A DNA stretch of 64,000 bases, from the IMG/VR virus record IMGVR_UViG_2675903433_000022; one strand, written 5' to 3'. The notes below the pieces were generated by a model, which was not told the origin of the DNA, searched no databases, and was given only the letters and a program-made list of their open reading frames with translations. Below, in pieces: positions 7,080 through 56,866 of this stretch. This stretch comes from a virus. Its lineage: Duplodnaviria > Heunggongvirae > Uroviricota > Caudoviricetes. How positions within the stretch are numbered: the first letter of the stretch is position 1; each line of letters opens with the position of its first letter. The position numbers were made by a program, and so were the translations under genes.

Positions 7080-8180
7080 TCACACTGCGCGGAATGCGAT
7101 TTCGCCAGGTATTACTTCACCTTGCCAATACATTTGGGCAGCAACGCGATCTGCGAGGTCACGATAAATAGCCGTAAATTCGCTATCTGGACGACTAATA
7201 ACGGTTGGTGTTCCGTTATCCAGATCTTCACGAAGAGAGATATGAAGTGGCATTTGGCCTAACAACTGCGTGTTGTATTTCTCGGCCAGTTTCTGTGCGC
7301 CACCGGTGCCAAAAATTGGCTCGTGATGACCGCAGTTACTGCAAATATGCATACTCATGTTCTCGACAATACCGAGCACCGGAACCTCGACTTTCTCGAA
7401 CATCACAATGCCTTTTTTCGCATCGATCAACGCGATGTCCTGCGGCGTAGTTACCACAACCGCACCAGTTACAGGAATGTTCTGCGCCAGCGTCAATTGA
7501 ATATCACCAGTGCCCGGCGGCATATCGAGAACGAGATAGTCCAGATCAGGCCATAGAGTTTCCTGCAACATCTGCATTAACGCCTTGCTCGCCATCGGAC
7601 CACGCCACACCATCGCATTGTCGTCAGTTACCAGATAACCAATTGAATTGGTTGCCAGTCCATGAGACATAATCGGTGCCATGTGAGTACCGTCCGGTGA
7701 GGTTGGACGTTGGTTTTCCGCGCCAAGCATGGTTGGAATTGATGGCCCGTAGATATCGGCATCCAAAATACCAACTTTCGCACCTTCAGCAGCCAACGCC
7801 AGTGCCAGGTTTACCGCCGTGGAGGATTTACCAACGCCGCCCTTGCCTGAGCTGACGGCGATAATGTTCTTAACGCCATTAATGCCTGGTTGGTTTTTGA
7901 CGCGCTTAAGCGTGGCAATGTTGTACGACAGCTTCCAGTCGATAGCCTTTGCGCCAGTGATACGGAGCAGATCACCACTACATTGCTCTTTCAGGTCTTC
8001 AAAAGGCTTATTCCACACGAAAGGCATGATTAGTTCGACATGCAGTGTGTCATCCATCAACGCAACATGGTGTAACGCTTTAAGCGTAGTCAGGTTGTGT
8101 TTCAGGGTTGGGTGCTGAAAATTAGCCAGCGTACCGGCTACCATTGCTCTCAGGGCATCCGGCGATTTGGACTCGCTCAT
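7080..8180 (-). CDS. apbC: Fe-S cluster carrier ATPase ApbC/Mrp
   Basis: 366 aa; SSGKGGVGKSSTAVNLALALA Walker A, CSNCGHHEPIFG motif; ortholog-level similarity to enterobacterial Mrp; divergent from metG as in enterobacterial chromosomes. Confidence 0.9.
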   Translation of the reverse strand: MSESKSPDALRAMVAGTLANFQHPTLKHNLTTLKALHHVALMDDTLHVELIMPFVWNKPFEDLKEQCSGDLLRITGAKAIDWKLSYNIATLKRVKNQPGINGVKNIIAVSSGKGGVGKSSTAVNLALALAAEGAKVGILDADIYGPSIPTMLGAENQRPTSPDGTHMAPIMSHGLATNSIGYLVTDDNAMVWRGPMASKALMQMLQETLWPDLDYLVLDMPPGTGDIQLTLAQNIPVTGAVVVTTPQDIALIDAKKGIVMFEKVEVPVLGIVENMSMHICSNCGHHEPIFGTGGAQKLAEKYNTQLLGQMPLHISLREDLDNGTPTVISRPDSEFTAIYRDLADRVAAQMYWQGEVIPGEIAFRAV

Positions 8181-8337
8181 CCCGTCTCCTTTATTTTAAT
8201 TTGCGCAATTGTCGCCTTGTAGTGTACTCCAGCTACGGCATTTAATCATTTATGAGAAATGCTGTTATCACATGGCAGACATAAGGCCATTTTGTTACTA
8301 TCAAGCCCCTTTTCACTACAAAGAAGTAATGCCTACT

Positions 8338-10371
8338 ATGACCCAAGTCGCGAAGAAAATTCTGGTGACGTGCGCGCTGCCGTACGCTAACGGCTCAATC
8401 CACCTCGGCCATATGCTGGAGCACATCCAGGCTGATGTCTGGGTTCGTTACCAGCGAATGCGCGGCCACGAGGTTAATTTCATCTGTGCCGACGATGCCC
8501 ACGGTACGCCGATCATGCTGAAAGCACAGCAGCTTGGTATCACACCGGAGCAGATGATTGGCGAAATGAGTCAGGAACACCAGACTGATTTCGCAGGCTT
8601 TAACATCAGCTATGACAACTATCACTCGACGCACAGCGAAGAGAACCGTCAGTTGTCTGAGCTTATCTATACTCGCCTGAAAGAGAACGGTTTTATTAAA
8701 AATCGTACCATCTCTCAGCTGTACGACCCGGAAAAAGGCATGTTCCTGCCGGACCGTTTTGTAAAAGGCACCTGCCCTAAATGTAAAGCGCCAGATCAAT
8801 ACGGCGATAACTGTGAAGTCTGCGGCGCGACTTACAGCCCGACTGAACTGATCGAGCCGAAATCGGTAGTTTCTGGTGCTACGCCGGTAATGCGTGATTC
8901 CGAACACTTCTTCTTTGATCTGCCTTCTTTCAGCGAAATGTTGCAGGCATGGACCCGCAGCGGTGCGTTGCAGGAGCAGGTGGCAAACAAAATGCAGGAG
9001 TGGTTTGAATCTGGCCTGCAACAGTGGGATATCTCCCGTGACGCACCTTACTTCGGTTTTGAAATTCCGAACGCGCCGGGCAAATATTTCTACGTCTGGC
9101 TGGACGCGCCGATTGGCTACATGGGTTCCTTCAAGAATCTGTGCGACAAGCGCGGTGATACCACCAGCTTCGATGAATACTGGAAGAAAGACTCCACCGC
9201 CGAGCTGTACCACTTCATCGGTAAAGATATTGTTTACTTCCACAGCCTGTTCTGGCCTGCCATGCTGGAAGGCAGCAACTTCCGCAAGCCGACCAACCTG
9301 TTTGTTCATGGCTATGTGACGGTGAACGGCGCAAAGATGTCCAAGTCTCGCGGCACCTTTATTAAAGCCAGCACCTGGCTGAATCATTTTGACGCTGACA
9401 GCCTGCGTTACTACTACACTGCGAAACTCTCTTCGCGCATTGATGATATCGATCTCAACCTGGAGGATTTCGTTCAGCGCGTGAATGCCGATATCGTGAA
9501 CAAAGTGGTTAACCTGGCCTCCCGTAATGCAGGCTTTATCAACAAGCGTTTTGACGGCGTGCTGGCAAGCGAACTGGCTGACCCGCAACTGTACAAAACC
9601 TTTACTGATGCCGCTGAAGTGATTGGTGAAGCATGGGAAAGCCGCGAATTTGGTAAAGCGATTCGTGAAATCATGGCGCTGGCTGATCTGGCTAACCGCT
9701 ATGTCGATGAACAGGCTCCGTGGGTGGTGGCGAAGCAGGAAGGACGCGATGCCGATCTGCAGGCGATTTGCTCTATGGGCATTAACCTGTTCCGCGTGCT
9801 GATGACGTACCTGAAACCGGTACTGCCGAAACTGACTGAACGTGCAGAAGCATTCCTGAATACAGAACTGACCTGGGATGGTATCCAGCAACCGCTGCTG
9901 GGCCATAAAGTGAATCCGTTCAAGGCACTGTATAACCGTATCGATATGAAACAGGTGGAAGCACTGGTGGAAGCATCCAAAGAAGAAGTGAAAGCCACAG
10001 CTGCACCGGTAACTGGCCCACTGGCTGACGACCCGATTCAGGAAACCATCACCTTTGACGACTTCGCCAAAGTTGACCTGCGTGTGGCGCTGATTGAAAA
10101 CGCGGAGTTTGTCGAAGGTTCTGACAAACTGCTTCGCCTGACGCTGGATCTCGGTGGTGAAAAGCGTAATGTCTTCTCAGGCATCCGTTCCGCTTATCCA
10201 GATCCACAGGCACTGATTGGTCGTCACACCATTATGGTGGCTAACCTGGCTCCGCGTAAAATGCGCTTCGGTATCTCTGAAGGCATGGTGATGGCTGCTG
10301 GCCCCGGCGGGAAAGATATCTTCCTGTTAAGCCCGGATGCTGGTGCTAAACCTGGCCACCAGGTTAAGTAA
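8338..10371 (+). CDS. metG: Methionyl-tRNA synthetase
   Basis: 677 aa from [29 protein letters not shown] (HIGH motif), KMSKS present, C-terminal tRNA-binding domain; track ORF 8209 is an upstream in-frame extension. Confidence 0.95.
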
Positions 10372-10469: not shown

Positions 10470-10533
10470 TCTGCCTTTTGTTGATGGAGATAATAAACCA
10501 CATAAGAAAACAACTTGTTTTGGAGTGGTTGAA

Positions 10534-10833
10534 ATGTTGAACATTACCCAAGCCTACCAGGTGGCATTGATCAGCTCATCTCATACATCAGAGGAAGATG
10601 CTCGCCGATTCATGATCGCAAGCAATGAGCTGGATTGGGTTTCACAAATTGAGTACGGTTGCATTGTCCACGCCGGGTTACAGGACGATGACTGGAAAGA
10701 TGAGTTGCGTCGATATGGTATATCCGAGGGCGCGATTGCGAACATTCAGAAAGTACTTGATGTAGGCTTTGACTCTGTACATTTTGATTGTGGCGCACCG
10801 GTCGTTGAAGGGCTTGAGTGCTGGCAATGGTAA
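10534..10833 (+). CDS. Hypothetical protein
   Basis: ATG with GGAG 8 nt upstream; 99 aa. Confidence 0.55.
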   Translation: MLNITQAYQVALISSSHTSEEDARRFMIASNELDWVSQIEYGCIVHAGLQDDDWKDELRRYGISEGAIANIQKVLDVGFDSVHFDCGAPVVEGLECWQW

Positions 10834-10869
10834 TCCGGCAATCGCTTCATACTAGATAACGGAGAATTT

Positions 10870-11055
10870 ATGCTTAAAGAAGACTCATATCTACTAAAGG
10901 CGCTTGAAATGCGTGGCGTTGAACCTACAGTGAAAAACGCTCACGATATCTACCTTCAGTTTTCGCCAGAGCTGAAACAGCTCATAAATAAATATGGAGT
11001 GAATGACTCCAGCGTCAAAGCCATGATAGATGATGAATTAGACCATCTCATCTAA
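10870..11055 (+). CDS. Hypothetical protein
   Basis: 61 aa; RBS acggagaattt before ATG. Confidence 0.5.
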   Translation: MLKEDSYLLKALEMRGVEPTVKNAHDIYLQFSPELKQLINKYGVNDSSVKAMIDDELDHLI

Positions 11056-11159: not shown

Positions 11160-11950
11160 TAGGTTATAGTTGTTTGCACAAACAAGAAAACAACTGAATA
11201 ACAGATCAACGAAACGTCAACGCTTTCTCCCGATTTGGTCTAAAAAATTGACGTTTTCACACATCACTTCTTATACCCGTAATTCTACGCAGCAGATAGC
11301 GCCACAGCGTTCAATTTTCACCACAGACGACTCAACACACTACCAACAAAAACACACGCTCAAAATCGCTCCCGTTGCGTTACACAACCATATAAACAAC
11401 TTATTTTCAGGTATAACAAAACAACTAAATAACACATACGCCATTACCAAAAACAACCAACCTCTTTATGGCAGGCTACCGAAAAGACCCACCTCTTCTT
11501 CCCAGGCTACCGGACAGCCAACCTAACTTTCACAGGCAATCCGAAAACATTCATACGCGCGATACCCACGACACGCCATTACCCAAACATCGAAGAAACA
11601 CCAGAATCACTGAAACCCCAACGAAGTCTGTAACCGCAAGGCTTCTCTCAATCCCAAAAGACACGAAACATAACAATCACGGGAAACGCCATTACCCAAT
11701 ACACGAATAACTACAAAAGCCCTTCACACACTCCAGACAAACAACTCAAACACAATAACGAAAGGAATAGCCCACCTGCCATTACTCCATATACGGAGAA
11801 GAACAATAACCATAACGACGAGAACACCCCATAGAAGAACCACCGCAAAACGAACGAAACCACATACACCGACAGAGAAAACAACACACCCAATCCACCA
11901 ACAGAAATAGTCGCCCTATAGAACGTTCTGGTAGGAGTGAGCATTAACGC
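11160..11950 (+). other. ORF-poor, strongly C+A-rich (G-depleted on plus strand) tract; possible non-coding RNA or origin-proximal region
   Basis: No ORF with an RBS; plus-strand composition skew visible by eye; terminator hairpin at 12035-12058. Confidence 0.3.
11457..11557. repeat. Three tandem ~30-bp direct repeats (CAGGCTACCGAAAAGACCCACCT-type), family 1
   Basis: Units read at 11472, 11503, 11533; related set at 14618-14705. Confidence 0.5.
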
Positions 11951-12034
11951 CTATAGAGAGGTTGAGACAGATAAAACACGAAGAAAACACAACATGTATA
12001 GCGAAGAAGCCAGGTATGTATAAGTGGGGAGGGA

Positions 12035-12058
12035 AGGAGGGGTGTCGCCTCCTTTTTC
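12035..12058 (+). terminator. Rho-independent terminator
   Basis: aggagg-ggtgtcg-cctcct hairpin followed by TTTTT. Confidence 0.5.
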
Positions 12059-12120
12059 GTATTTATTCAACTCCTGATTTTATCCCCCGTAACACCCCTA
12101 CGGTCAGCCTTCGGTCCATA

Positions 12121-12268
12121 CAGGGAAAAGGTTGCATCCCGCTACAGAAACGGCTGGATTGCCTTCGGGGAACGGCTGGAGGTTTTCAGGGAAACGGTCG
12201 AGCTGCCTTTGTGGATTTCGGGAAAAGGCTCGATGCCGGTTCAGGAACGGTGGCGTACCGGTATAGCG
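12121..12268. repeat. Six tandem ~22-25-bp direct repeats with core GGGAAA(C/A)GGCTG (iteron-like), family 2
   Basis: Cores at 12123, 12147, 12168, 12190, 12221, 12245; related set at 15304-15385. Confidence 0.5.
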
Positions 12269-12612
12269 AGAGAGAGTTGCGGCTACCCACCTGTAATGTG
12301 CGGTAAGAAGAGAGGCGCTCACGTGCAGGCGAACTTACTTACCGCTGGATTCCCTCTGAATGCCCAGCTACAGCGTAATTGTGCCAGACAGTCAGCGGGT
12401 CACAATCGATTTCAGTAGGTTTTCGGGGAGGGGATTATTCTGCCCACCAGCCATCTTCGGCCATTAAATCAGAATAATGTAAAAAGTGTACTCGGTACTG
12501 AACCTGAAAACTCACTGCCAAAACCACATTCACCGGAATAAAATCCTTTTTAGCCTTTGCGTTATTGCGATAATAACACCATCAAGAAAACATGTTGTTT
12601 AAGGATTGCTTT

Positions 12613-12942
12613 ATGTTTGCAAATATCGACATCAACCAAATCAAGAAAATGACTCAAAAAGAGTTTGACCAGTTTTATGAGCTGGAAGGTTGGTCTTCCA
12701 CTCTGATTAATTCAAGATGGGTGCTGGAACTGATGACTCGTGATGACGCACCTGCTTTGATGATCAGCGACCTGGGTGAAGATGCTGACTTTATGGATAT
12801 GAGCGAATTTTGTGTGGACACATACAACCGCAGCCAGAAGTACTACTTCACATGCGATAGCGAAAATGACGTGATTTCTAAGGTCTATCTTCACCTCGTC
12901 CAGCATTGGGACGTTCAGGAGTTTCTTGAAGTATTCGAGTAA
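12613..12942 (+). CDS. Hypothetical acidic protein
   Basis: ATG preceded by AAGGA (7 nt); track start 12592 falls inside the palindrome motif. Confidence 0.55.
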   Translation: MFANIDINQIKKMTQKEFDQFYELEGWSSTLINSRWVLELMTRDDAPALMISDLGEDADFMDMSEFCVDTYNRSQKYYFTCDSENDVISKVYLHLVQHWDVQEFLEVFE

Positions 12943-13096
12943 ACCCAACCAAAGCCAGCAATGCTGGCTTAACTTCATCTGTAGCCGCAGGGAAGAACCT
13001 GCATATCGCTCATGCGCCTGATCAATATGCTTTGTAGCCGTTTTCTTACTGGTATTATTTACGCCATTGAGAAAACAAGTTGTTTACGGAGTTGTG

Positions 13097-13408
13097 ATGA
13101 AAAAATCATTGGTTCTTGGTCTGGACAAAGACCAGAAGAGAAAAGAGAAGCCTGCACTGGTTGCTCAATTAACTTTGCTGGACATCGTTGCCAATGGGAC
13201 CTCTATTCGTCTGTTCCGTGAAACAGCGGTGTCTTTCGATAAAAACACCTTTACTCGTTATGTAATGAATGTTCGTCGCCAGCGTGGAAAAGGCTGGGTG
13301 GCATTTCAAAGAATGTGGCCGGAACATCAGCTCGAACTGGCTTTGATGGAAGTAAACCGCGTGGCCCAGCAAGAGATTCAGAGAGCATCAGTGATGGCAA
13401 TAGCCTGA
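13097..13408 (+). CDS. Hypothetical protein
   Basis: ATG with GGAG RBS, preceded by palindrome AAACAAgTTGTTT at 13073-13085. Confidence 0.55.
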   Translation: MKKSLVLGLDKDQKRKEKPALVAQLTLLDIVANGTSIRLFRETAVSFDKNTFTRYVMNVRRQRGKGWVAFQRMWPEHQLELALMEVNRVAQQEIQRASVMAIA

Positions 13409-13443
13409 TAATGTGCAAGTGGTAATTAGTCGACCGTACGACA

Positions 13444-13470
13444 GCCCCGCCATCCTTACGGGGCTTTTTT
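13444..13470 (+). terminator. Rho-independent terminator
   Basis: gccccg...cggggc hairpin plus TTTTTT. Confidence 0.6.
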
Positions 13471-13534
13471 GTATTGTAAGTACATACTTACGATCATAGA
13501 ATATAAAAATAACCAAGACACTACGGAGAGTGAA

Positions 13535-13930
13535 ATGACCGTTAAACGCGAAAAACTGACAGTTGATGTTTACTATGCCTCTGAAACCGCCGAAGGTAAG
13601 AATGTGGCAAAAATCACCGTTGTTACGTACAACACCGAAACTGGTGCCGAAGTACAGGCCAGTACGATCGTGCGTAAAGGTGATGCCTCCGGCGGCGAGT
13701 ACGCGACTCAATACCAGTCCATTCTCGATGCAACTGACCCGCTGCTGCTGAAAATCGAGAACTACTTCCGCCAGGTTGATGAAGAGGTGTTTGAAACCAT
13801 GATGAATATGGTTAACACAGTATTCGCCTCCAGCCTGAATACCAACACTACCTGGATTGGTCAGTACGGCCTGCGCATTACCTCCGGCATTCCTGCTGAC
13901 ACCTTAATCCCTGAAAGCGTATTCGCTTAA
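13535..13930 (+). CDS. Hypothetical protein
   Basis: ATG after ctacggagagtgaa RBS; track ORF start 13469 lies inside the terminator. Confidence 0.6.
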   Translation: MTVKREKLTVDVYYASETAEGKNVAKITVVTYNTETGAEVQASTIVRKGDASGGEYATQYQSILDATDPLLLKIENYFRQVDEEVFETMMNMVNTVFASSLNTNTTWIGQYGLRITSGIPADTLIPESVFA

Positions 13931-13941
13931 TCTTCTTTGAA

Positions 13942-13966
13942 TGGCGCGTAAACCGCGCCATTTTTT
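13942..13966 (+). terminator. Rho-independent terminator
   Basis: tggcgcg-taaac-cgcgcca hairpin plus TTTTTT. Confidence 0.6.
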
Positions 13967-14046
13967 ATGCCCGATAACAATTTGTTTTCTACCTTATCTG
14001 ATTTGTGAAAATGATTTCACTGAAGCAACTTAATAAGGAAACCATC

Positions 14047-14421
14047 ATGGGACTTGATATCTATATCGAGACACAGCCTAAAAACGATCTGAATAACGAG
14101 GCATCCAGAAAGCAGGTTGCTTACTTCCGTAAGTTCAATGCGCTCGTTGGGTGGATGGAGCGCAACGTAGGTGAAGTCGAAAATTGTGAGCTTTTAGAAT
14201 TAACGATGAATGACATTTGTTTTCTGAAGGCTCATTTGATGCACATAAACGAAAGTAATTGCGAAGAGTACTTGCCTACCCGGGAAGGCTTTTTCTTCGG
14301 CAGTCAGGAGTACGATGAAGGTTACTGGCATGACGTGGACAAGCTGAAAAAACTTGTGGAAGACCTGATCAGGAACCACGACTTTCACAATAACAGACTG
14401 ACGTTCTGCGCCTGGTGGTAA
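14047..14421 (+). CDS. Hypothetical protein
   Basis: ATG with AAGGAA RBS; track start 14005 lies in the promoter-like motif. Confidence 0.55.
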   Translation: MGLDIYIETQPKNDLNNEASRKQVAYFRKFNALVGWMERNVGEVENCELLELTMNDICFLKAHLMHINESNCEEYLPTREGFFFGSQEYDEGYWHDVDKLKKLVEDLIRNHDFHNNRLTFCAWW

Positions 14422-14573
14422 ATATGGGCGATTTCAAGAAACGCCTGAAGGAAAGAGCCGAGATGGTCAGAAAGCAAAACGCCTCTTCTGTCATCAGATA
14501 TGCAAGGCAGTTTAGTCGCAACAACAAATCAGTTGAGGAAAAGATCCTTAGCGTAATCGGGCGATAATTATTA

Positions 14574-14596
14574 AGGCCATCAGCATTGGTGGCCTT
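14574..14596 (+). terminator. Stem-loop aaggccatcagcattggtggcctt
   Basis: Third copy of the aaggcca...tggcctt hairpin family. Confidence 0.5.
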
Positions 14597-14617
14597 AAAT
14601 GACCATCCTGTTTCCCG

Positions 14618-14705
14618 CAGGCTAAAAACACCAACCTCTTACCTCCAGGCAACCGACAAACCCACCTGTTCCCGTCCGGCTACCGCAACTTTCCACTTTG
14701 ACGCC
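14618..14705. repeat. Three tandem ~30-bp direct repeats, family 1 (second locus)
   Basis: caggctaaaaacaccaacct / caggcaaccgacaaacccacct / cggctaccgcaac units. Confidence 0.5.
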
Positions 14706-14771
14706 TTATTCGTACAACGATAATTAACACCAACAAGAAAACAATTTGTTATTTACGATAAGGAATTAATC

Positions 14772-15254
14772 ATGAATTTTATCGCTACTGTAAACGCACC
14801 CGCACATGGCAATATCGTTGTAACGTTCTCTGACATTGAAAAACGAGTACTTGGTGCCTGGCGTCACAATGAGACGGTAGAACTGTCAGAACAAGAAAAA
14901 TGCATTATTTCACGCGACATCATTGGCAATCGTCGTTACTCGCGGGTATTTGAGAAAGCGTATGTGGTAAATTCTGGATTCGGAACGTTCGTCTTTCCGG
15001 TGCGCTCCGGGCGATTCTGCCAGTCCAAGCTGATTGAGTTCGCTACGCAGATTTCTGTCTGGATTAAAACTCAATCGTCGTTCAAATTTTCCGACGATGA
15101 AGCAGTATCGCAGGGGATGCGGATCGCCAACAATGCGATTAAATGCAAAAACATTACGTATACCGCTGGCGTTGATACATGGAAACTGTTTTGCGCTAAC
15201 TTTATGCTGAATGTATACGCAAGCAACCGCATCCACATCCTTGATGGCGTGTAA
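14772..15254 (+). CDS. Hypothetical protein
   Basis: 160 aa; RBS ataaggaattaatc; preceded by palindrome site 14739-14751; followed by terminator. Confidence 0.6.
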   Translation: MNFIATVNAPAHGNIVVTFSDIEKRVLGAWRHNETVELSEQEKCIISRDIIGNRRYSRVFEKAYVVNSGFGTFVFPVRSGRFCQSKLIEFATQISVWIKTQSSFKFSDDEAVSQGMRIANNAIKCKNITYTAGVDTWKLFCANFMLNVYASNRIHILDGV

Positions 15255-15263
15255 CTGAGAAGA

Positions 15264-15285
15264 GGGCCAGAAACGGCCCTTTCTC
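15264..15285 (+). terminator. Rho-independent terminator
   Basis: gggccagaaacggccc hairpin plus T-rich tail; the hairpin itself contains the GAAACGGCC core. Confidence 0.55.
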
Positions 15286-15303
15286 TATAGCCACCAGCTG
15301 CCG

Positions 15304-15385
15304 CAGGGAAATTTTCAGAAACGGCGAGGAACGCATTCATGAGCCGACGGGAAACGGCCAGGATTTTTTCGGGAAACGGCTGCAT
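15304..15385. repeat. Tandem GGGAAACGGC-core repeats, family 2 (second locus)
   Basis: Cores at 15306, 15319, 15350, 15372. Confidence 0.45.
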
Positions 15386-16372: not shown

Positions 16373-17023
16373 TTACGCTTTGAAAGCATCAGCTAAATAA
16401 TTGTAGAAATCATTTTTAATGAAGCGATATTGCTGAGTACCAGCTTTCGCACTCCCAGCTCCTTTGACTTTTTCAACAAGTCCAAGACGTTCGCAAAGAT
16501 TGATCAACTGGTTGGCTTGAGTATAGCCAGCGTCCAATTTAATTTCACACGCTTTTTTAGCTTCATTCATTAAATCGAAAACAGCGCCATTGGTGAACGT
16601 GTCGATCTCGTCGTTAATCATATCGATTAAAGCGAATACACGAGATCCAGACATATCAGCGATGGAATAAACGCATTTACCAGATTTAATTGATTTAACC
16701 AGATAAACCAGTTTTTCCAGAGAATAACTATTAGTCATTGCATCACGGAAAAATACTTCTGGCGCTTGTTTGCTTGCTTTAATCGCATAGTAGAAAACAG
16801 AGCATAATTTTTCGTCTTCAACAGCGTTTACAACGTTGTTGATGAAGTAAGCAAGTTTAGTGGTCGCAGCTTGCATATTTGCTTTGTCTGCTTTAGTGTG
16901 CGTACCATTTTTATAATGTTCGTTATATGTTTGAGTTGCCAGATCTGCTTTTTCGCGCAGTTCATCGGATACAATGGAAGCAGCTTCAATGATGGATTTT
17001 TTAGAAATGATAATGTTAGCCAT
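16373..17023 (-). CDS. Hypothetical protein in AT-rich island
   Basis: 216 aa; RBS aaggaaaaattatc; locally low GC. Confidence 0.6.
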   Translation of the reverse strand: MANIIISKKSIIEAASIVSDELREKADLATQTYNEHYKNGTHTKADKANMQAATTKLAYFINNVVNAVEDEKLCSVFYYAIKASKQAPEVFFRDAMTNSYSLEKLVYLVKSIKSGKCVYSIADMSGSRVFALIDMINDEIDTFTNGAVFDLMNEAKKACEIKLDAGYTQANQLINLCERLGLVEKVKGAGSAKAGTQQYRFIKNDFYNYLADAFKA

Positions 17024-17618: not shown

Positions 17619-18143
17619 TCAAAAAGGCAAAATTCGCTCAACCCAATCGAACAAAACAACTATTTTTCTACCGTTCTCGACACGTAGTGTAACCTGACAA
17701 GCATCTGCGCCTGCTGACACTCCCTCAATTTCACGGCCATCCGCCATGTACACCCTTATAGATTTGTTTGCTTTGTAGGCTTGGTTGCAAATTGCAAAAA
17801 AATCGCGGCGTGATGGCCGATTATCGACATAATCAGGGTGAACTGTTAGTCGACCTTTGAAATCGTGAGCGATACTGTCAACCACACCTGATTCAATTGT
17901 ACTAATGCGTTCAAGTGGGAGCCTTATACGATTTTCTTTATCAAAAGGGGCTGGGCAAAGGTCAACTTTGTTACGAGATGGCATGAGGCCATAAACGTAC
18001 ATGCAAAACGCCTGGCCATCTTCGAGAGTGACCCTTACAGGAATTTGTTCTCTGCGCCAGAACATCAGTAGTTTTTCAACGTTAGTGTAATCTCGCGGCC
18101 AGAGTTCAGCTTGGATACCGTAGGTAATATCTTTGGTTGTCAT
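17619..18143 (-). CDS. Hypothetical protein
   Basis: Start MTTKD directly after the upstream stop; track ORF to 18221 overlaps the upstream gene. Confidence 0.5.
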   Translation of the reverse strand: MTTKDITYGIQAELWPRDYTNVEKLLMFWRREQIPVRVTLEDGQAFCMYVYGLMPSRNKVDLCPAPFDKENRIRLPLERISTIESGVVDSIAHDFKGRLTVHPDYVDNRPSRRDFFAICNQAYKANKSIRVYMADGREIEGVSAGADACQVTLRVENGRKIVVLFDWVERILPF

Positions 18144-18147
18144 GTCA

Positions 18148-18612
18148 TCACAGAGTTGTTGGCAGAATGTCGATGTCACCAGAATTGCTGGTGAACACCC
18201 TGAACGCTTTTGTGTCTCCATTCTTCAGAGTCGTTTCTCGCTCTTGACGAGCGGGGTTTAGAGCACATAAACCTGCACCTTCAAGAGATGCACCCACAAT
18301 TAATTCTCCGGCATTTAAATGGAAAGTCGCTTTTTCGCCTGTAGCCAGTTTTGCGACAGTTTCGCCGTTGATGAAAATGGAAGCATCACATCCAGCTCCT
18401 ACAAAACCTGTGTCTCTCATTACCACCAACGTAGCTGGCGCTGCGCTTTGATACTTGAACACTTTGGCCTGCGGTGCTGGTTTGGCGTCATGGATTGATA
18501 TTGGGCGTGATTGGCACGCGGTAAGCATCAACACTGGTAACGTTAGTAGAGGGAGAAGCGAGTATTTCATGATAGTTTTAGAACAGAAAGTGAACAGTAT
18601 GGGAGACTTCAT
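18148..18612 (-). CDS. Putative lipoprotein
   Basis: Signal peptide with lipobox LTAC (…LPLLTLPVLMLTAC); RBS agggagacaaag before the first ATG; a shorter start at MKYSLL is possible. Confidence 0.6.
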   Translation of the reverse strand: MKSPILFTFCSKTIMKYSLLPLLTLPVLMLTACQSRPISIHDAKPAPQAKVFKYQSAAPATLVVMRDTGFVGAGCDASIFINGETVAKLATGEKATFHLNAGELIVGASLEGAGLCALNPARQERETTLKNGDTKAFRVFTSNSGDIDILPTTL

Positions 18613-54700: not shown

Positions 54701-54800
54701 GTTAACAGCCATTGATTCTCGCCTAAAAATTCTAAGGCAGCACCTACCATTTAACCTTTACACAGCAGCCGTAGGCATTTAGGCTATATCACATATAAGA

Positions 54801-54848: not shown

Positions 54849-55517
54849 ATGACCAAGATCTTTGTGGTTGGCGGCACAAAGGGCGGGCCTGGCAAATCCA
54901 CTGTTGCCCAGCAAATTGCCGTTTGCCTGAAAGTCAAAAAGAAGAAGAAGGTTTATATCACTGATATAGATATTCAGCGCACGACAACAAGCTGGTGTGA
55001 AGACCGTCGACAGAACGAAGACCTTGAGCTGATTCCTTTTGCCTACGTTCAGGATGACATCATTAAGCACCTAAAATCGCTTCAGGGTAGAGCTGAGTTT
55101 GTAGTGGTAGATGCTGGTGGCTTTGACTCCGAAATTCAGCGACAAGCGATGCTGATGGCCGACGTTATCATTATCCCGCTGCGTCCTAAGCGTCGTGATT
55201 TGAAATCTCTGCGTGACATCGATCCTATTATCGACAATGTTCGTAATGTAAACGATAAAGTGAAGGTCCGCGCGGTCATGAACCAGTGCCCGGCTTTGCC
55301 ATCACAAGTGTCTCGCATTCTGGCGGCTAAAGAGATTGTCGAGACGTTTGGCATCGAGTCTGCGCCAGTCAATCTATATAACCGCAACGTCTACGATGAT
55401 GCGGAAGAGTCTGGTCGTTCTATCTTCGAAATGACCGGTAGCGAGCGCGACAAAAAGGCTGAAGCCGAGTTTGAAGAATTTGTAGATTATCTGTTGAGTC
55501 TGGAGGAAGAAGAATAA
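54849..55517 (+). CDS. ParA/ParF-family partition ATPase
   Basis: Deviant Walker A KIFVVGGTKGGPGKST; 222 aa (small type Ib ParA size). Confidence 0.85.
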   Translation: MTKIFVVGGTKGGPGKSTVAQQIAVCLKVKKKKKVYITDIDIQRTTTSWCEDRRQNEDLELIPFAYVQDDIIKHLKSLQGRAEFVVVDAGGFDSEIQRQAMLMADVIIIPLRPKRRDLKSLRDIDPIIDNVRNVNDKVKVRAVMNQCPALPSQVSRILAAKEIVETFGIESAPVNLYNRNVYDDAEESGRSIFEMTGSERDKKAEAEFEEFVDYLLSLEEEE

Positions 55518-55876
55518 TGTCCATGAAAATGGGTGACCTAGCAAAGCGCAAAGAGCCTGATGCACCGGCTAAGAACACAACTCCTTTGCGCCAACCAGTC
55601 AGACCACAGGGACGCCCGACTCGTGGCAAAGAGAAAATTAAGAGCCGCACGATGTCACTGGAGGACGAATACTTCGAACTGCTGGAGATGATGAAGTTCA
55701 TCCCTCGTTTCGAGAAATTCACCCGTTCAGACGTGATTCGCGCAGCCATTTTCCATCTGGCAGAGAAGTCACCGCAGGAAATCGAGGACATCGTGAAACT
55801 TAACGAGGCGATCACAGCTGCCGATGTCACGATGCGTACCGATGAAATCAAACGAGAGTTGATGAAAAAAGGTTAA
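55517..55876 (+). CDS. ParG-like small partition / centromere-binding protein (putative RHH)
   Basis: 119 aa, basic disordered N-terminus, TAATG-coupled to ParA-like gene. Confidence 0.55.
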   Translation: MSMKMGDLAKRKEPDAPAKNTTPLRQPVRPQGRPTRGKEKIKSRTMSLEDEYFELLEMMKFIPRFEKFTRSDVIRAAIFHLAEKSPQEIEDIVKLNEAITAADVTMRTDEIKRELMKKG

Positions 55877-56696: not shown

Positions 56697-56807
56697 TATT
56701 GCATCTCTTAGCTACTGACTAATGCGTTCTATTTTACACATAAGTTTTTAATCAATTTAACAGGCTCAAAGTGTAGAGCTTCTGGGCGTCTAAGACGACA
56801 AGTTATG

Positions 56808-56866
56808 CCTGCTTCCGTATATATAAATAATAAGTAACTTATTAAATATATACAGAAGCAGGTCTT
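56808..56866. repeat. ~56-bp imperfect palindrome, copy 2
   Basis: Core tatatataaataataagtaacttattaaatatatac identical to copy 1; stems reverse-complemented. Confidence 0.6.

What the first reader, a model, noticed from the sequence alone, without database searches (positions are those of the whole stretch)
11457..15385. Two families of tandem direct repeats present in the same order at two loci (iteron-like)
Family 1 (~30-bp units CAGGCTACCGAAAAGACCCACCT...) occurs as three tandem units at 11457-11557 and again at 14618-14705. Family 2 (~22-25-bp units with core GGGAAACGGCTG) occurs as six units at 12121-12268 and four at 15304-15385. Each family-1 array lies about 600 bp upstream of a family-2 array. 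Tandem arrays of 20-30-bp units are typical of iterons at plasmid or phage origins, or arrays of regulator-binding sites. Together with the ParA/ParG module this could mark a plasmid-type origin.
Basis: partly seen in the sequence, partly recalled or inferred. Interest (0 to 1): 0.65.

Follow-up and report, generated by a model that had tools for sequence, protein, structure and literature searches.

The report
Conserved repeat arrays bracketing phage-plasmid early units
Two different sets of short, evenly spaced DNA repeats sit in the same order at two places in an SSU5/pHCM2-type phage-plasmid and are conserved across many enterobacterial genera; they look like docking sites for an unidentified DNA-binding protein, and they are not the plasmid's replication origin.

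Summary
Family 1 (F1) has bipartite units of about 30 bp, ACCnACCTCTT-N5/6-CAGGCTACC, three at 11456-11543 and three at 14602-14685. Family 2 (F2) has 22-bp units with core GGGAAACGGC, six at 12121-12262 and three or four at 15304-15383. All units are on the + strand.

The window is an E. coli SSU5/pHCM2/pMT1-like phage-plasmid, 97% identical to phage Cyrano. About 90 relatives from Escherichia, Salmonella, Klebsiella, Enterobacter, Citrobacter, Kluyvera, Buttiauxella and Yersinia keep the arrays, their order and their spacing. The flanking DNA there is only 58-75% identical.

The plasmid-origin reading fails. The window has no RepA gene. In relatives RepA has its own unrelated iterons 9-34 kb away. 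The ParA/RHH module lies 40 kb away and carries a different operator.

At locus 2 the arrays bracket a transcription unit. F1 lies just upstream of a conserved sigma-70 promoter and F2 just past a conserved terminator hairpin, which argues for a DNA-level role. RNA structure has no covariation support.

My best reading is phased protein-binding arrays that control or organise two early units. The candidate binder is a universally linked winged-helix protein at 16373-17023. A lytic-origin role remains a live rival.

The parts
11456..11543 (+). F1a: three tandem bipartite units (ACCnACCTCTT-N5/6-CAGGCTACCG), start-to-start spacing 31 and 30 bp
   Evidence: 4 hits against 0 in shuffles. Conserved in relatives. 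Information profile.
12121..12262 (+). F2a: six units with core ggGAAAcGGc.gg, spacing 22/22/22/31/22 bp. Spacers are variable, and relatives gain or lose whole units.
14602..14685 (+). F1b: three F1 units. They lie between an upstream hairpin (14573-14600) and the -35 of the promoter of the 160-aa gene.
15304..15383 (+). F2b: one partial and three full F2 units. They start about 20 bp after the terminator hairpin of the 160-aa gene, in a convergent intergenic region.
14697..14752 (+). Conserved sigma-70-type promoter of the 160-aa gene (-35 TTTGAC 14697-14702, 16-nt spacer, -10 GATAAT 14719-14724), followed by the operator palindrome AAAACAATTTGTTA at 14738-14751.
   Evidence: Sequence. Conservation in 14 diverse relatives. 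Palindrome statistics. The promoter assignment is by consensus, not by experiment.
14772..15254 (+). Gene for a 160-aa protein of unknown function (phrog_1641), the cargo bracketed by F1b and F2b.
15257..15285 (+). Conserved hairpin GAGAAGAGGGCC-AGAAAC-GGCCCTTTCTC, a probable intrinsic terminator of the 160-aa gene.
   Evidence: RNAalifold helix at columns 6-37, kept in 10 of 10 diverse relatives with one- and two-sided changes. The simple terminator scan did not call it.
11290..11950 (+). A+C-rich, G/T-poor non-coding segment between F1a and F2a (A 41%, C 32%, G 12%, T 15%). It carries a third oriented repeat, F3 (GCCATTACY, some copies extended to ..AATACACGGAGAAGAAC), at 11440, 11575, 11688 and 11779.
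   Evidence: composition conserved at 58-75% identity; no conserved ORF. No gene is annotated here in most records.
11211..11277 (+). Conserved block upstream of locus 1. It holds the inverted repeat GAAACGTCAA / TTGACGTTTT and a promoter-like -35 TTGACG (11248-11253) with TATACC 18 nt downstream. This is only a candidate promoter, because its -10 is weak.
   Evidence: Alignment. Not called by the promoter scan. The region is at floor level in Cyrano lysogen RNA-seq.
12031..12057 (+). G-rich block with a terminator-like hairpin and T-run just upstream of F2a. The hairpin and T-run are clear in the E. coli lineage only.
16373..17023 (-). Gene for a 216-aa protein (phrog_1513), the candidate array-binding protein. 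It has an N-terminal helical hairpin and a C-terminal winged-helix domain, and it is universally linked to locus 2.

Best explanation
F1 and F2 are two kinds of phased, same-orientation protein-binding site arrays that act on double-stranded DNA. They belong to the early-gene region of SSU5/pHCM2-type phage-plasmids and bracket two units: a non-coding A+C-rich segment (locus 1) and a promoter-gene-terminator cassette for a 160-aa protein (locus 2).

Proposed mechanism, which is inferred. An element-encoded DNA-binding protein loads cooperatively on one face of the helix at F1, which occupies about -45 to -130 of the promoter at locus 2. The best candidate is the universally linked winged-helix protein at 16373-17023. 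The same or a partner protein loads at F2, just past the terminator. The two arrays then form a higher-order complex, by looping or insulation, that sets the expression or accessibility of the bracketed about 650-bp unit during the switch between plasmid maintenance and lytic growth.

Shown: the arrays are real, conserved and phased; they lie outside the transcription unit at locus 2; and they are not the RepA origin. Inferred: that a protein binds, which protein it is, and that the output is regulatory or architectural.
For: 1. Conservation. The arrays are kept in about 90 loci from at least eight genera, with conserved cores (about 1.8-2 bits per position) and free spacers (0.2-0.6 bits). 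This is the pattern of sequence-specific protein sites.
2. Phasing. Spacings of 22, 31 and 33 bp (F2) and 28-31 bp (F1) are close to 2 or 3 helical turns. Natural variants add or lose whole units.
3. Position at locus 2. F1b ends 12 bp (window) to about 24 bp (relatives) upstream of a conserved -35/-10 promoter. F2b begins just after a conserved terminator hairpin. Both arrays are therefore outside the mRNA.
4. Shared motifs only. The arrays are shared between the loci but the cargo is not.
5. No RNA signal. RNAalifold gives no covariation support within F2a or F2b (covariation terms +1.96 and -1.1), and there is no Rfam match.
6. Low transcription. Locus 1 is at floor level in lysogen RNA-seq of the 97%-identical phage Cyrano (PMC9928086 S1 table).
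7. Candidate binder. A highly conserved winged-helix protein is encoded next to locus 2 in 67 of 67 relatives.
Against: - F1 and F2 are different motifs, so a simple one-protein loop is not obvious.
- At locus 1, F1a has no recognisable promoter after it and lies about 180-270 bp downstream of a candidate promoter. The promoter-upstream logic therefore holds only at locus 2.
- The strand-asymmetric composition of locus 1 and the uniform orientation of all three repeat families would also fit a single-strand (RNA or ssDNA) function.
- The 28-bp and 48-bp spacings are off-phase.
Confidence: 0.4

Rival explanations
1. Lytic-cycle replication origin, or origin plus a distant cis-enhancer. F2, with or without F1, would be iterons for a phage-encoded initiator distinct from plasmid RepA, used at two loci 3 kb apart. 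Known parallels (from established knowledge) are P4 ori/crr and SPP1 oriL/oriR. The conserved non-coding A+C-rich segment would be the transcription-activated or unwinding region.
For: - 22-bp phased direct repeats in clusters of 6 and 3-4 at two loci.
- A 1.5-kb conserved gene-free region, which is unusual in a compact phage genome, with strand-asymmetric composition conserved across relatives.
- The element encodes its own Pol III alpha, DnaB-like helicase, primase, ligase and UvsW-like helicase but has no assigned lytic origin.
- The neighbouring conserved winged-helix protein gives weak Foldseek hits to Orc1/Cdc6 and RTP winged-helix domains.
Against: - There is no AT-rich unwinding element, DnaA box or GATC cluster at the arrays.
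- Locus 2 brackets an ordinary protein gene and lies where transcription converges, not diverges.
- Cumulative GC skew shows no inflection there.
- A more origin-like site exists at 56730-56865: a DnaA-box-like sequence and a 55-bp AT-rich palindrome directly upstream of the 249-aa/DnaB-like helicase genes.
- No initiator has been identified.
Confidence: 0.25
2. RNA-level element. Locus 1 would be a long untranslated, G-depleted RNA made after induction. Its oriented repeats (F1, F3, F2) would be multivalent binding sites for an RNA-binding factor. Candidates are the adjacent FljA-like/Hfq-like translational repressor, Rho/Nus factors (the segment is C-rich and G-poor like a rut site, and F1 has a boxA-like CCUCUU), or CsrA (most F2 units carry GGA).
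For: - All repeats are on the strand of the surrounding genes.
- The A+C-rich, G-poor composition (C/G about 2-2.6 over 650 nt) is conserved while the sequence diverges, and there is no ORF.
- An FljA-family protein (PF03614, E 2.5e-84, weak Hfq hit) is encoded nearby in 67 of 67 relatives.
- F3 shares ACCCAATAC with the E. coli fliC 5'UTR.
- F2 units fit CA(N)GGA (one search lists the GGA sites).
Against: - At locus 2, F1b is upstream of the promoter and F2b is downstream of the terminator.
- There is no covariation.
- The F1 to G-block pairing is no better than composition-matched shuffles.
- GGA is not enriched overall (16 observed against about 12 expected).
- There is no Rfam hit.
- The region is at floor level in lysogen RNA-seq.
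- The candidate promoter has a poor -10.
- The 9-mer shared with fliC could be chance.
Confidence: 0.12
3. Centromere-like partition sites for the type Ib ParA / 119-aa RHH-like system at 54849-55876, placed far from the par genes, as the dispersed sop sites of phage-plasmid N15 are.
For: - Direct-repeat arrays are the usual form of type Ib centromeres.
- No repeat array is found next to parA.
- The protein after ParA has a weak ribbon-helix-helix hit.
Against: - The arrays lie 40 kb from parA.
- The parA promoter instead carries the palindrome AAAACAAGTTGTTT, which recurs at 13 sites and is the more likely ParG-type or global operator.
- pMT1 lacks this ParA module yet keeps locus 2. That retention may simply be recent.
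Confidence: 0.08
4. Iterons of the plasmid-maintenance (RepA-type) origin or its copy-control locus.
For: Only the general architecture: a 22-bp period and two clusters.
Against: - There is no RepA in the window.
- The family's RepA genes carry their own dense, unrelated iterons with DnaA boxes 9-34 kb away.
- The pMT1-type RepA iteron motif is absent from the window.
Confidence: 0.02

Closest known systems
Iteron arrays of RepA-type plasmid and prophage origins (P1 oriR/incA, F ori2/incC, and the pMT1/pHCM2 RepFIB-like origin)
   Same: Tandem direct repeats with a period of about 21-22 bp, a conserved core with variable spacers, more than one cluster per replicon, and whole-unit copy-number variation.
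   Different: - No Rep gene lies beside the arrays.
- The element's real RepA iterons are a different sequence at a different place.
- No DnaA box or AT-rich element is adjacent.
- Two distinct motif families occur in a fixed order, bracketing a unit.
Two-site phage origins: P4 ori/crr and SPP1 oriL/oriR (from established knowledge)
   Same: The same short repeats occur at two loci kilobases apart on one phage genome and are bound by one initiator.
   Different: No initiator is known here, and no unwinding element has been found. Locus 2 encloses an ordinary gene with its own promoter and terminator.
Winged-helix or RHH proteins that coat arrays of direct repeats: TubR-tubC (pBtoxis, phage c-st), omega protein heptad arrays of pSM19035, ParG-parH of TP228
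   Same: Clusters of phased direct repeats are bound cooperatively, and some serve as operator and centromere at several loci. The neighbouring 216-aa protein has a TubR/MarR-like winged-helix domain.
   Different: The units here are longer (22 and 30 bp, against 4-12 bp). There is no TubZ, and ParA is not adjacent. Binding has not been tested.
Cox (P2) and Apl (186) type arrays, in which one small protein binds phased direct repeats at two loci (switch promoters and att)
   Same: Oriented, helically phased direct repeats are used at two separate loci of a temperate phage to set the lysis-lysogeny state.
   Different: Those arrays have periods of about 10 bp, use a single motif, and lie at the switch region and att site. 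Here there are two motifs, with 22- and 30-bp periods, in the early accessory-gene region.

Membership tests
Iteron-type plasmid origin (RepA/iterons) | Tandem direct repeats of about 17-22 bp at a phasing of about 22 bp | tested here: met
   F2: 22/22/22/31/22 bp.
Iteron-type plasmid origin (RepA/iterons) | A cognate Rep initiator gene adjacent to the repeats | tested here: not met
   No RepA homolog in the window. In pAVS0968-B, RepA is 34 kb away. In pMT1, repA is about 9 kb away.
Iteron-type plasmid origin (RepA/iterons) | The repeats are the sequence bound by the element's Rep, that is, they match the iterons flanking rep | tested here: not met
   The RepA-flanking iterons are GTATGCTGTCAGCGGT and ATCCACTRTRGAGAG. 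They are unrelated to F1 and F2. The latter motif has 0 hits in the window.
Iteron-type plasmid origin (RepA/iterons) | A DnaA box and an AT-rich unwinding element next to the iterons | tested here: not met
   No DnaA-box match between 11000 and 15400. GC content is 43-56% across the arrays.
Iteron-type plasmid origin (RepA/iterons) | Supports autonomous replication or exerts incompatibility | not testable with these tools
   Needs cloning and incompatibility assays.
Two-site phage lytic origin (P4 ori/crr type) | The same initiator-binding repeats at two separated loci | tested here: met
   F2 and F1 each occur at two loci 3.1 kb apart.
Two-site phage lytic origin (P4 ori/crr type) | A phage initiator that binds the repeats, with replication starting there | not testable with these tools
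   No initiator was identified by Pfam, NCBIfam or PHROGs. Needs marker-frequency analysis.
Type Ib partition centromere (ParG/ParR-type) | A repeat array at or next to the par operon that doubles as its operator | tested here: not met
   parA is at 54849. Its upstream region has no F1 or F2 and no direct-repeat array, but it does have the palindrome at 54800.
Promoter-proximal transcription-factor site array | Sites phased and positioned within about 150 bp upstream of a conserved promoter | tested here: inconclusive
   Met at locus 2, where F1b ends 12-24 bp upstream of the conserved -35. Not met at locus 1, where no promoter follows F1a. F2 lies downstream of the terminators.
Protein-sponge or structured non-coding RNA (CsrB/RsmZ-like) | Transcribed, with repeated GGA motifs presented in conserved hairpin loops, and a match to a curated family | tested here: not met
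   No Rfam match. No covariation. GGA is not enriched. The locus 2 arrays lie outside the transcription unit.

The most novel reading that the evidence does not exclude
Locus 1 (about 11.25-12.3 kb) is not just a set of DNA sites. On this reading it encodes an induction-specific, G-depleted and therefore unstructured RNA of about 1 kb. Its three oriented repeat families would form a multivalent platform that captures an RNA-binding factor. Candidates are the universally linked FljA-like/Hfq-like translational repressor, or host Rho, Nus or CsrA. That would make it a phage-plasmid-encoded protein sponge or anti-termination hub that times early gene expression. The fliC-leader-like ACCCAATAC in F3 would then be a mimic of the FljA target.
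Probability: 0.1. Interest if true: 0.75.

Novelty: new variant of a known kind. Interest (0 to 1): 0.5.

Why it matters
SSU5/pHCM2/pMT1-type phage-plasmids are very common in clinical Escherichia, Klebsiella, Salmonella and Enterobacter, and one forms part of the Yersinia pestis pMT1 virulence plasmid. More than 800 plasmid records carry this region. Their cis-acting control elements are essentially undescribed, and I found no paper mentioning these arrays.

A 1.5-kb gene-free region with three oriented repeat families, kept across genera, must do something important for the element. Plausible roles are control of the early or anti-defence gene block, a lytic origin, or a regulatory RNA.

Identifying the binder would give a handle on the plasmid-to-phage switch of this family. 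It would also give a clean, testable system: two motifs, two loci, one candidate winged-helix protein.

The check also corrects a tempting misannotation. These arrays are not the plasmid origin or incompatibility determinant, which lies at repA.

Tried and rejected
1. **RepA-type origin.** Rejected: there is no RepA in the window, and unrelated iterons flank repA in relatives.
2. **Segmental duplication.** Rejected: only the arrays are similar between the loci.
3. **Coding region.** Rejected: no ORF in the A+C-rich segment is conserved in position or frame. The short ORFs annotated over F2a in a few records were not checked directly and are not annotated in most records.
4. **Known RNA family.** No Rfam hit at E <= 5.
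5. **Conserved RNA structure in F2a or F2b.** No covariation. The long-range F1 to G-block helix predicted by RNAalifold was tested with duplex energies against composition-matched shuffles. It is not significant (z mostly between -1.5 and +1), so I also drop the 'inverted F1 copy' idea.
6. **CsrA sponge.** GGA count is 16 against about 12 expected.
8. **Arrays outside the family.** A viral-contig scan for paired F2 cores returned SSU5-like contigs, plus chance or simple-repeat hits only.
9. **GC-skew origin mapping.** The skew follows gene orientation only.
10. **Chi sites near the arrays.** Chi is enriched throughout the window (16 copies), so this is not specific.
11. **Pfam, NCBIfam and PHROGs on neighbouring small proteins.** No DNA-binding family was found.
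12. **Literature searches** for the arrays or for an SSU5 lytic origin. Nothing found.

Full report
**What the window is.** The 5 kb around the finding is 97% identical to Escherichia phage Cyrano (the pLF82 phage-plasmid). It is 94-98% identical to many E. coli plasmids of 100-120 kb. It has weaker matches in Klebsiella, Salmonella (pHCM2, phage SSU5), Enterobacter, Citrobacter, Cronobacter and Yersinia pestis pMT1. The window is therefore part of an SSU5/pHCM2-type phage-plasmid. The finding lies in a block of small rightward genes of unknown function at 10.5-15.3 kb. This block follows metG and apbC-like accessory genes and precedes a leftward operon and the packaging and head genes.

- F1 units are bipartite, ACCnACCTCTT-N5/6-CAGGCTACCG. 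They lie at 11456-11481, 11487-11512 and 11517-11543, and again at 14602-14627, 14630-14655 and 14660-14685.
- F2 units share the core ggGAAAcGGc.gg. Cores start at 12121, 12145, 12166, 12187, 12219 and 12242, and at 15304 (partial), 15316, 15348 and 15370.
- A 26-nt F1 pattern hits four times, against none in 100 shuffles.
- F1a against F1b and F2a against F2b align far above shuffles (z = 12.8 and 7.6). The DNA between the arrays does not.
- In a complete relative the arrays occur nowhere else.

**Conservation.**
- I fetched six annotated relatives, 6 genome loci and 77 viral-contig loci. Nearly all carry F1 x 2-4, then about 650-710 bp, then F2 x 3-6. A variable set of small genes follows, then F1 x 2-3, the 160-aa gene and F2 x 3-4.
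- pMT1 has only the second locus, next to an IS1541 insertion.
- Flanking non-coding DNA is only 58-75% identical. The repeat cores are nearly invariant (about 1.8-2 bits per position), and the spacers are free.
- The 22/22/22/31/22 spacing of F2a is kept. Variants differ by whole units.
- This is the signature of selection on sequence-specific sites and on their register.

**Not the plasmid origin.**
- The window has no RepA homolog.
- In the 97%-identical pAVS0968-B, the RepA homolog lies at the record start, flanked by more than 15 iterons GTATGCTGTCAGCGGT at spacings of about 21-51 bp. That is 34 kb from the arrays.
- In pMT1, repA is flanked by ATCCACTRTRGAGAG iterons, DnaA boxes and GATC clusters. 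Neither motif resembles F1 or F2, and the pMT1 motif is absent from the window.
- The arrays have no DnaA box, AT-rich tract or GATC cluster.
- The ParA (222 aa) plus 119-aa RHH-like module lies at 54849-55876. Its promoter region carries a different element, the palindrome AAAACAAGTTGTTT.

**Anatomy.**
- *Locus 2.* The order is: an upstream hairpin; F1b; a conserved sigma-70-type promoter (TTTGAC, 16 nt, GATAAT); the palindromic operator; a Shine-Dalgarno sequence; the 160-aa gene; a conserved hairpin with a T-rich tail; then F2b. F2b lies in a gap where rightward and leftward transcription converge. Both arrays are therefore outside the mRNA of the unit they bracket.
- *Locus 1.* This sits in a 1.5-kb stretch with no annotated gene in most records. 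The order is: a conserved block with an inverted repeat and a weak promoter-like site (11211-11277); an operator-like palindrome (11394); F1a; a 650-bp A+C-rich, G/T-poor segment; a G-rich block; then F2a.
- The A+C-rich segment has no conserved reading frame. It carries a third oriented repeat, F3 (GCCATTACY...), and its composition is conserved.

**DNA or RNA?**
- RNAalifold finds no covariation in F2a or F2b.
- A predicted long-range F1 to G-block helix is no better than composition-matched shuffles.
- Rfam has no match, and GGA motifs are not enriched.
- In published RNA-seq of the Cyrano lysogen, the pseudo-ORFs covering locus 1 are at or near the detection floor (PMC9928086 S1 table).
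- Together with the positions at locus 2, this favours a DNA-level function. The strand asymmetry of locus 1 keeps an RNA or single-strand role possible for that locus.

**Who binds?**
- The bracketed 160-aa protein gives a confident AF2 model with no structural relative.
- Among neighbours, two genes are present in 67 of 67 relatives. One is an FljA-family protein (PF03614, E 2.5e-84). The other is a 216-aa protein that is unusually conserved, at 83-100% identity.
- It is the best candidate binder, but this is inference only.

**Verdict.**
- The arrays are real, conserved, phased protein-site-like repeats.
- The most economical mechanism is cooperative protein binding on DNA at F1 and F2 that brackets and controls two early units (confidence 0.40).
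- A lytic origin or enhancer is the main rival (0.25). It is weakened by the lack of an unwinding element, by convergent transcription at locus 2, and by a more origin-like AT-rich palindrome with a DnaA-box-like site at 56730-56865 beside the helicase genes.
- RNA-level function (0.12), a dispersed centromere (0.08) and RepA iterons (0.02) follow.
- I found no description of these arrays in the searchable literature.

Noticed in passing
window 211, 5452, 10456, 10507, 11394, 12587, 13072, 13974, 14738, 23852, 23877, 54800, 57730: The palindrome AAAACAANTTGTTT occurs at 13 sites (22 strand-matches against 0.3 expected). It always lies in promoter or 5'UTR regions: of early genes, the terS-like gene, parA and the DnaB-like helicase gene. 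It looks like the operator of a global repressor, or of a ParG/KorA-like regulator.
   Followed up: partly
window 11290-11950: A 650-bp non-coding segment with A 41%, C 32%, G 12% and T 15%. The skew is conserved in relatives that are only 58-75% identical, and no ORF is conserved. It contains an oriented repeat, F3 (GCCATTACY, some copies extended by AATACACGGAGAAGAAC), at 11440, 11575, 11688 and 11779. As RNA it would be an extreme C-rich, G-poor, Rho-loading-type sequence.
   Followed up: partly
window 17619-18221 (-): An FljA-family protein ('repressor of phase-1 flagellin', PF03614, E 2.5e-84) with a weak Hfq/Sm hit. It is present in 67 of 67 relatives. The F3 repeat shares the 9-mer ACCCAATAC with the E. 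coli K-12 fliC 5'UTR. This could be chance and has not been tested further.
   Followed up: partly
window 16373-17023 (-): A 216-aa protein of unknown function, 83-100% identical across all relatives. It is predicted to have a helical hairpin and a C-terminal winged-helix DNA-binding domain.
   Followed up: yes
window 56730-56865: A DnaA-box-like TTTTACACA and a 55-bp AT-rich near-perfect palindrome (CCTGCTTCCGTATATAT...ATATATACAGAAGCAGG). They lie in the divergent intergenic region upstream of a 249-aa gene and the DnaB-like helicase gene. This is a more conventional candidate for a phage origin.
   Followed up: no
window 54849-55876: A small ParA (222 aa; MipZ/ParA Pfam hits via its pAVS0968-B counterpart), followed by a 119-aa protein with a weak ribbon-helix-helix (aCcr1) hit. 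No direct-repeat centromere lies next to it.
   Followed up: partly
window 12444, 15291 (- strand) and 15416 (+ strand); 16 sites window-wide: The Chi octamer GCTGGTGG occurs 16 times in 64 kb, against about 2 expected at random. Copies next to F2b and downstream of F2a are conserved in relatives. The enrichment is general, not specific to the arrays.
   Followed up: partly
window 10525-11055: Two small early genes just upstream of locus 1. One has a DUF5983 domain (E 8e-13). The other has a weak, sub-threshold hit to the T7 gp5.9 RecBCD inhibitor (E 0.006). This suggests the region is an anti-defence or early gene block.
   Followed up: no
window 11211-11257: The inverted repeat GAAACGTCAA / TTGACGTTTT, with 27 bp between the arms. 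The right arm overlaps the promoter-like -35 upstream of locus 1, and the repeat is conserved in all aligned relatives. It may be a separate operator.
   Followed up: no
window 7080-10371: The phage-plasmid carries an apbC/Mrp-like ATPase gene and a full-length methionyl-tRNA synthetase gene (annotated in Cyrano and in RefSeq relatives).
   Followed up: no
L018, L043, L046, L089 and others, compared with window 12121-12262: Natural variants of F2a lack exactly one or two 22-bp units. Some relatives have four F1 units. The arrays therefore expand and contract by whole units.
   Followed up: yes
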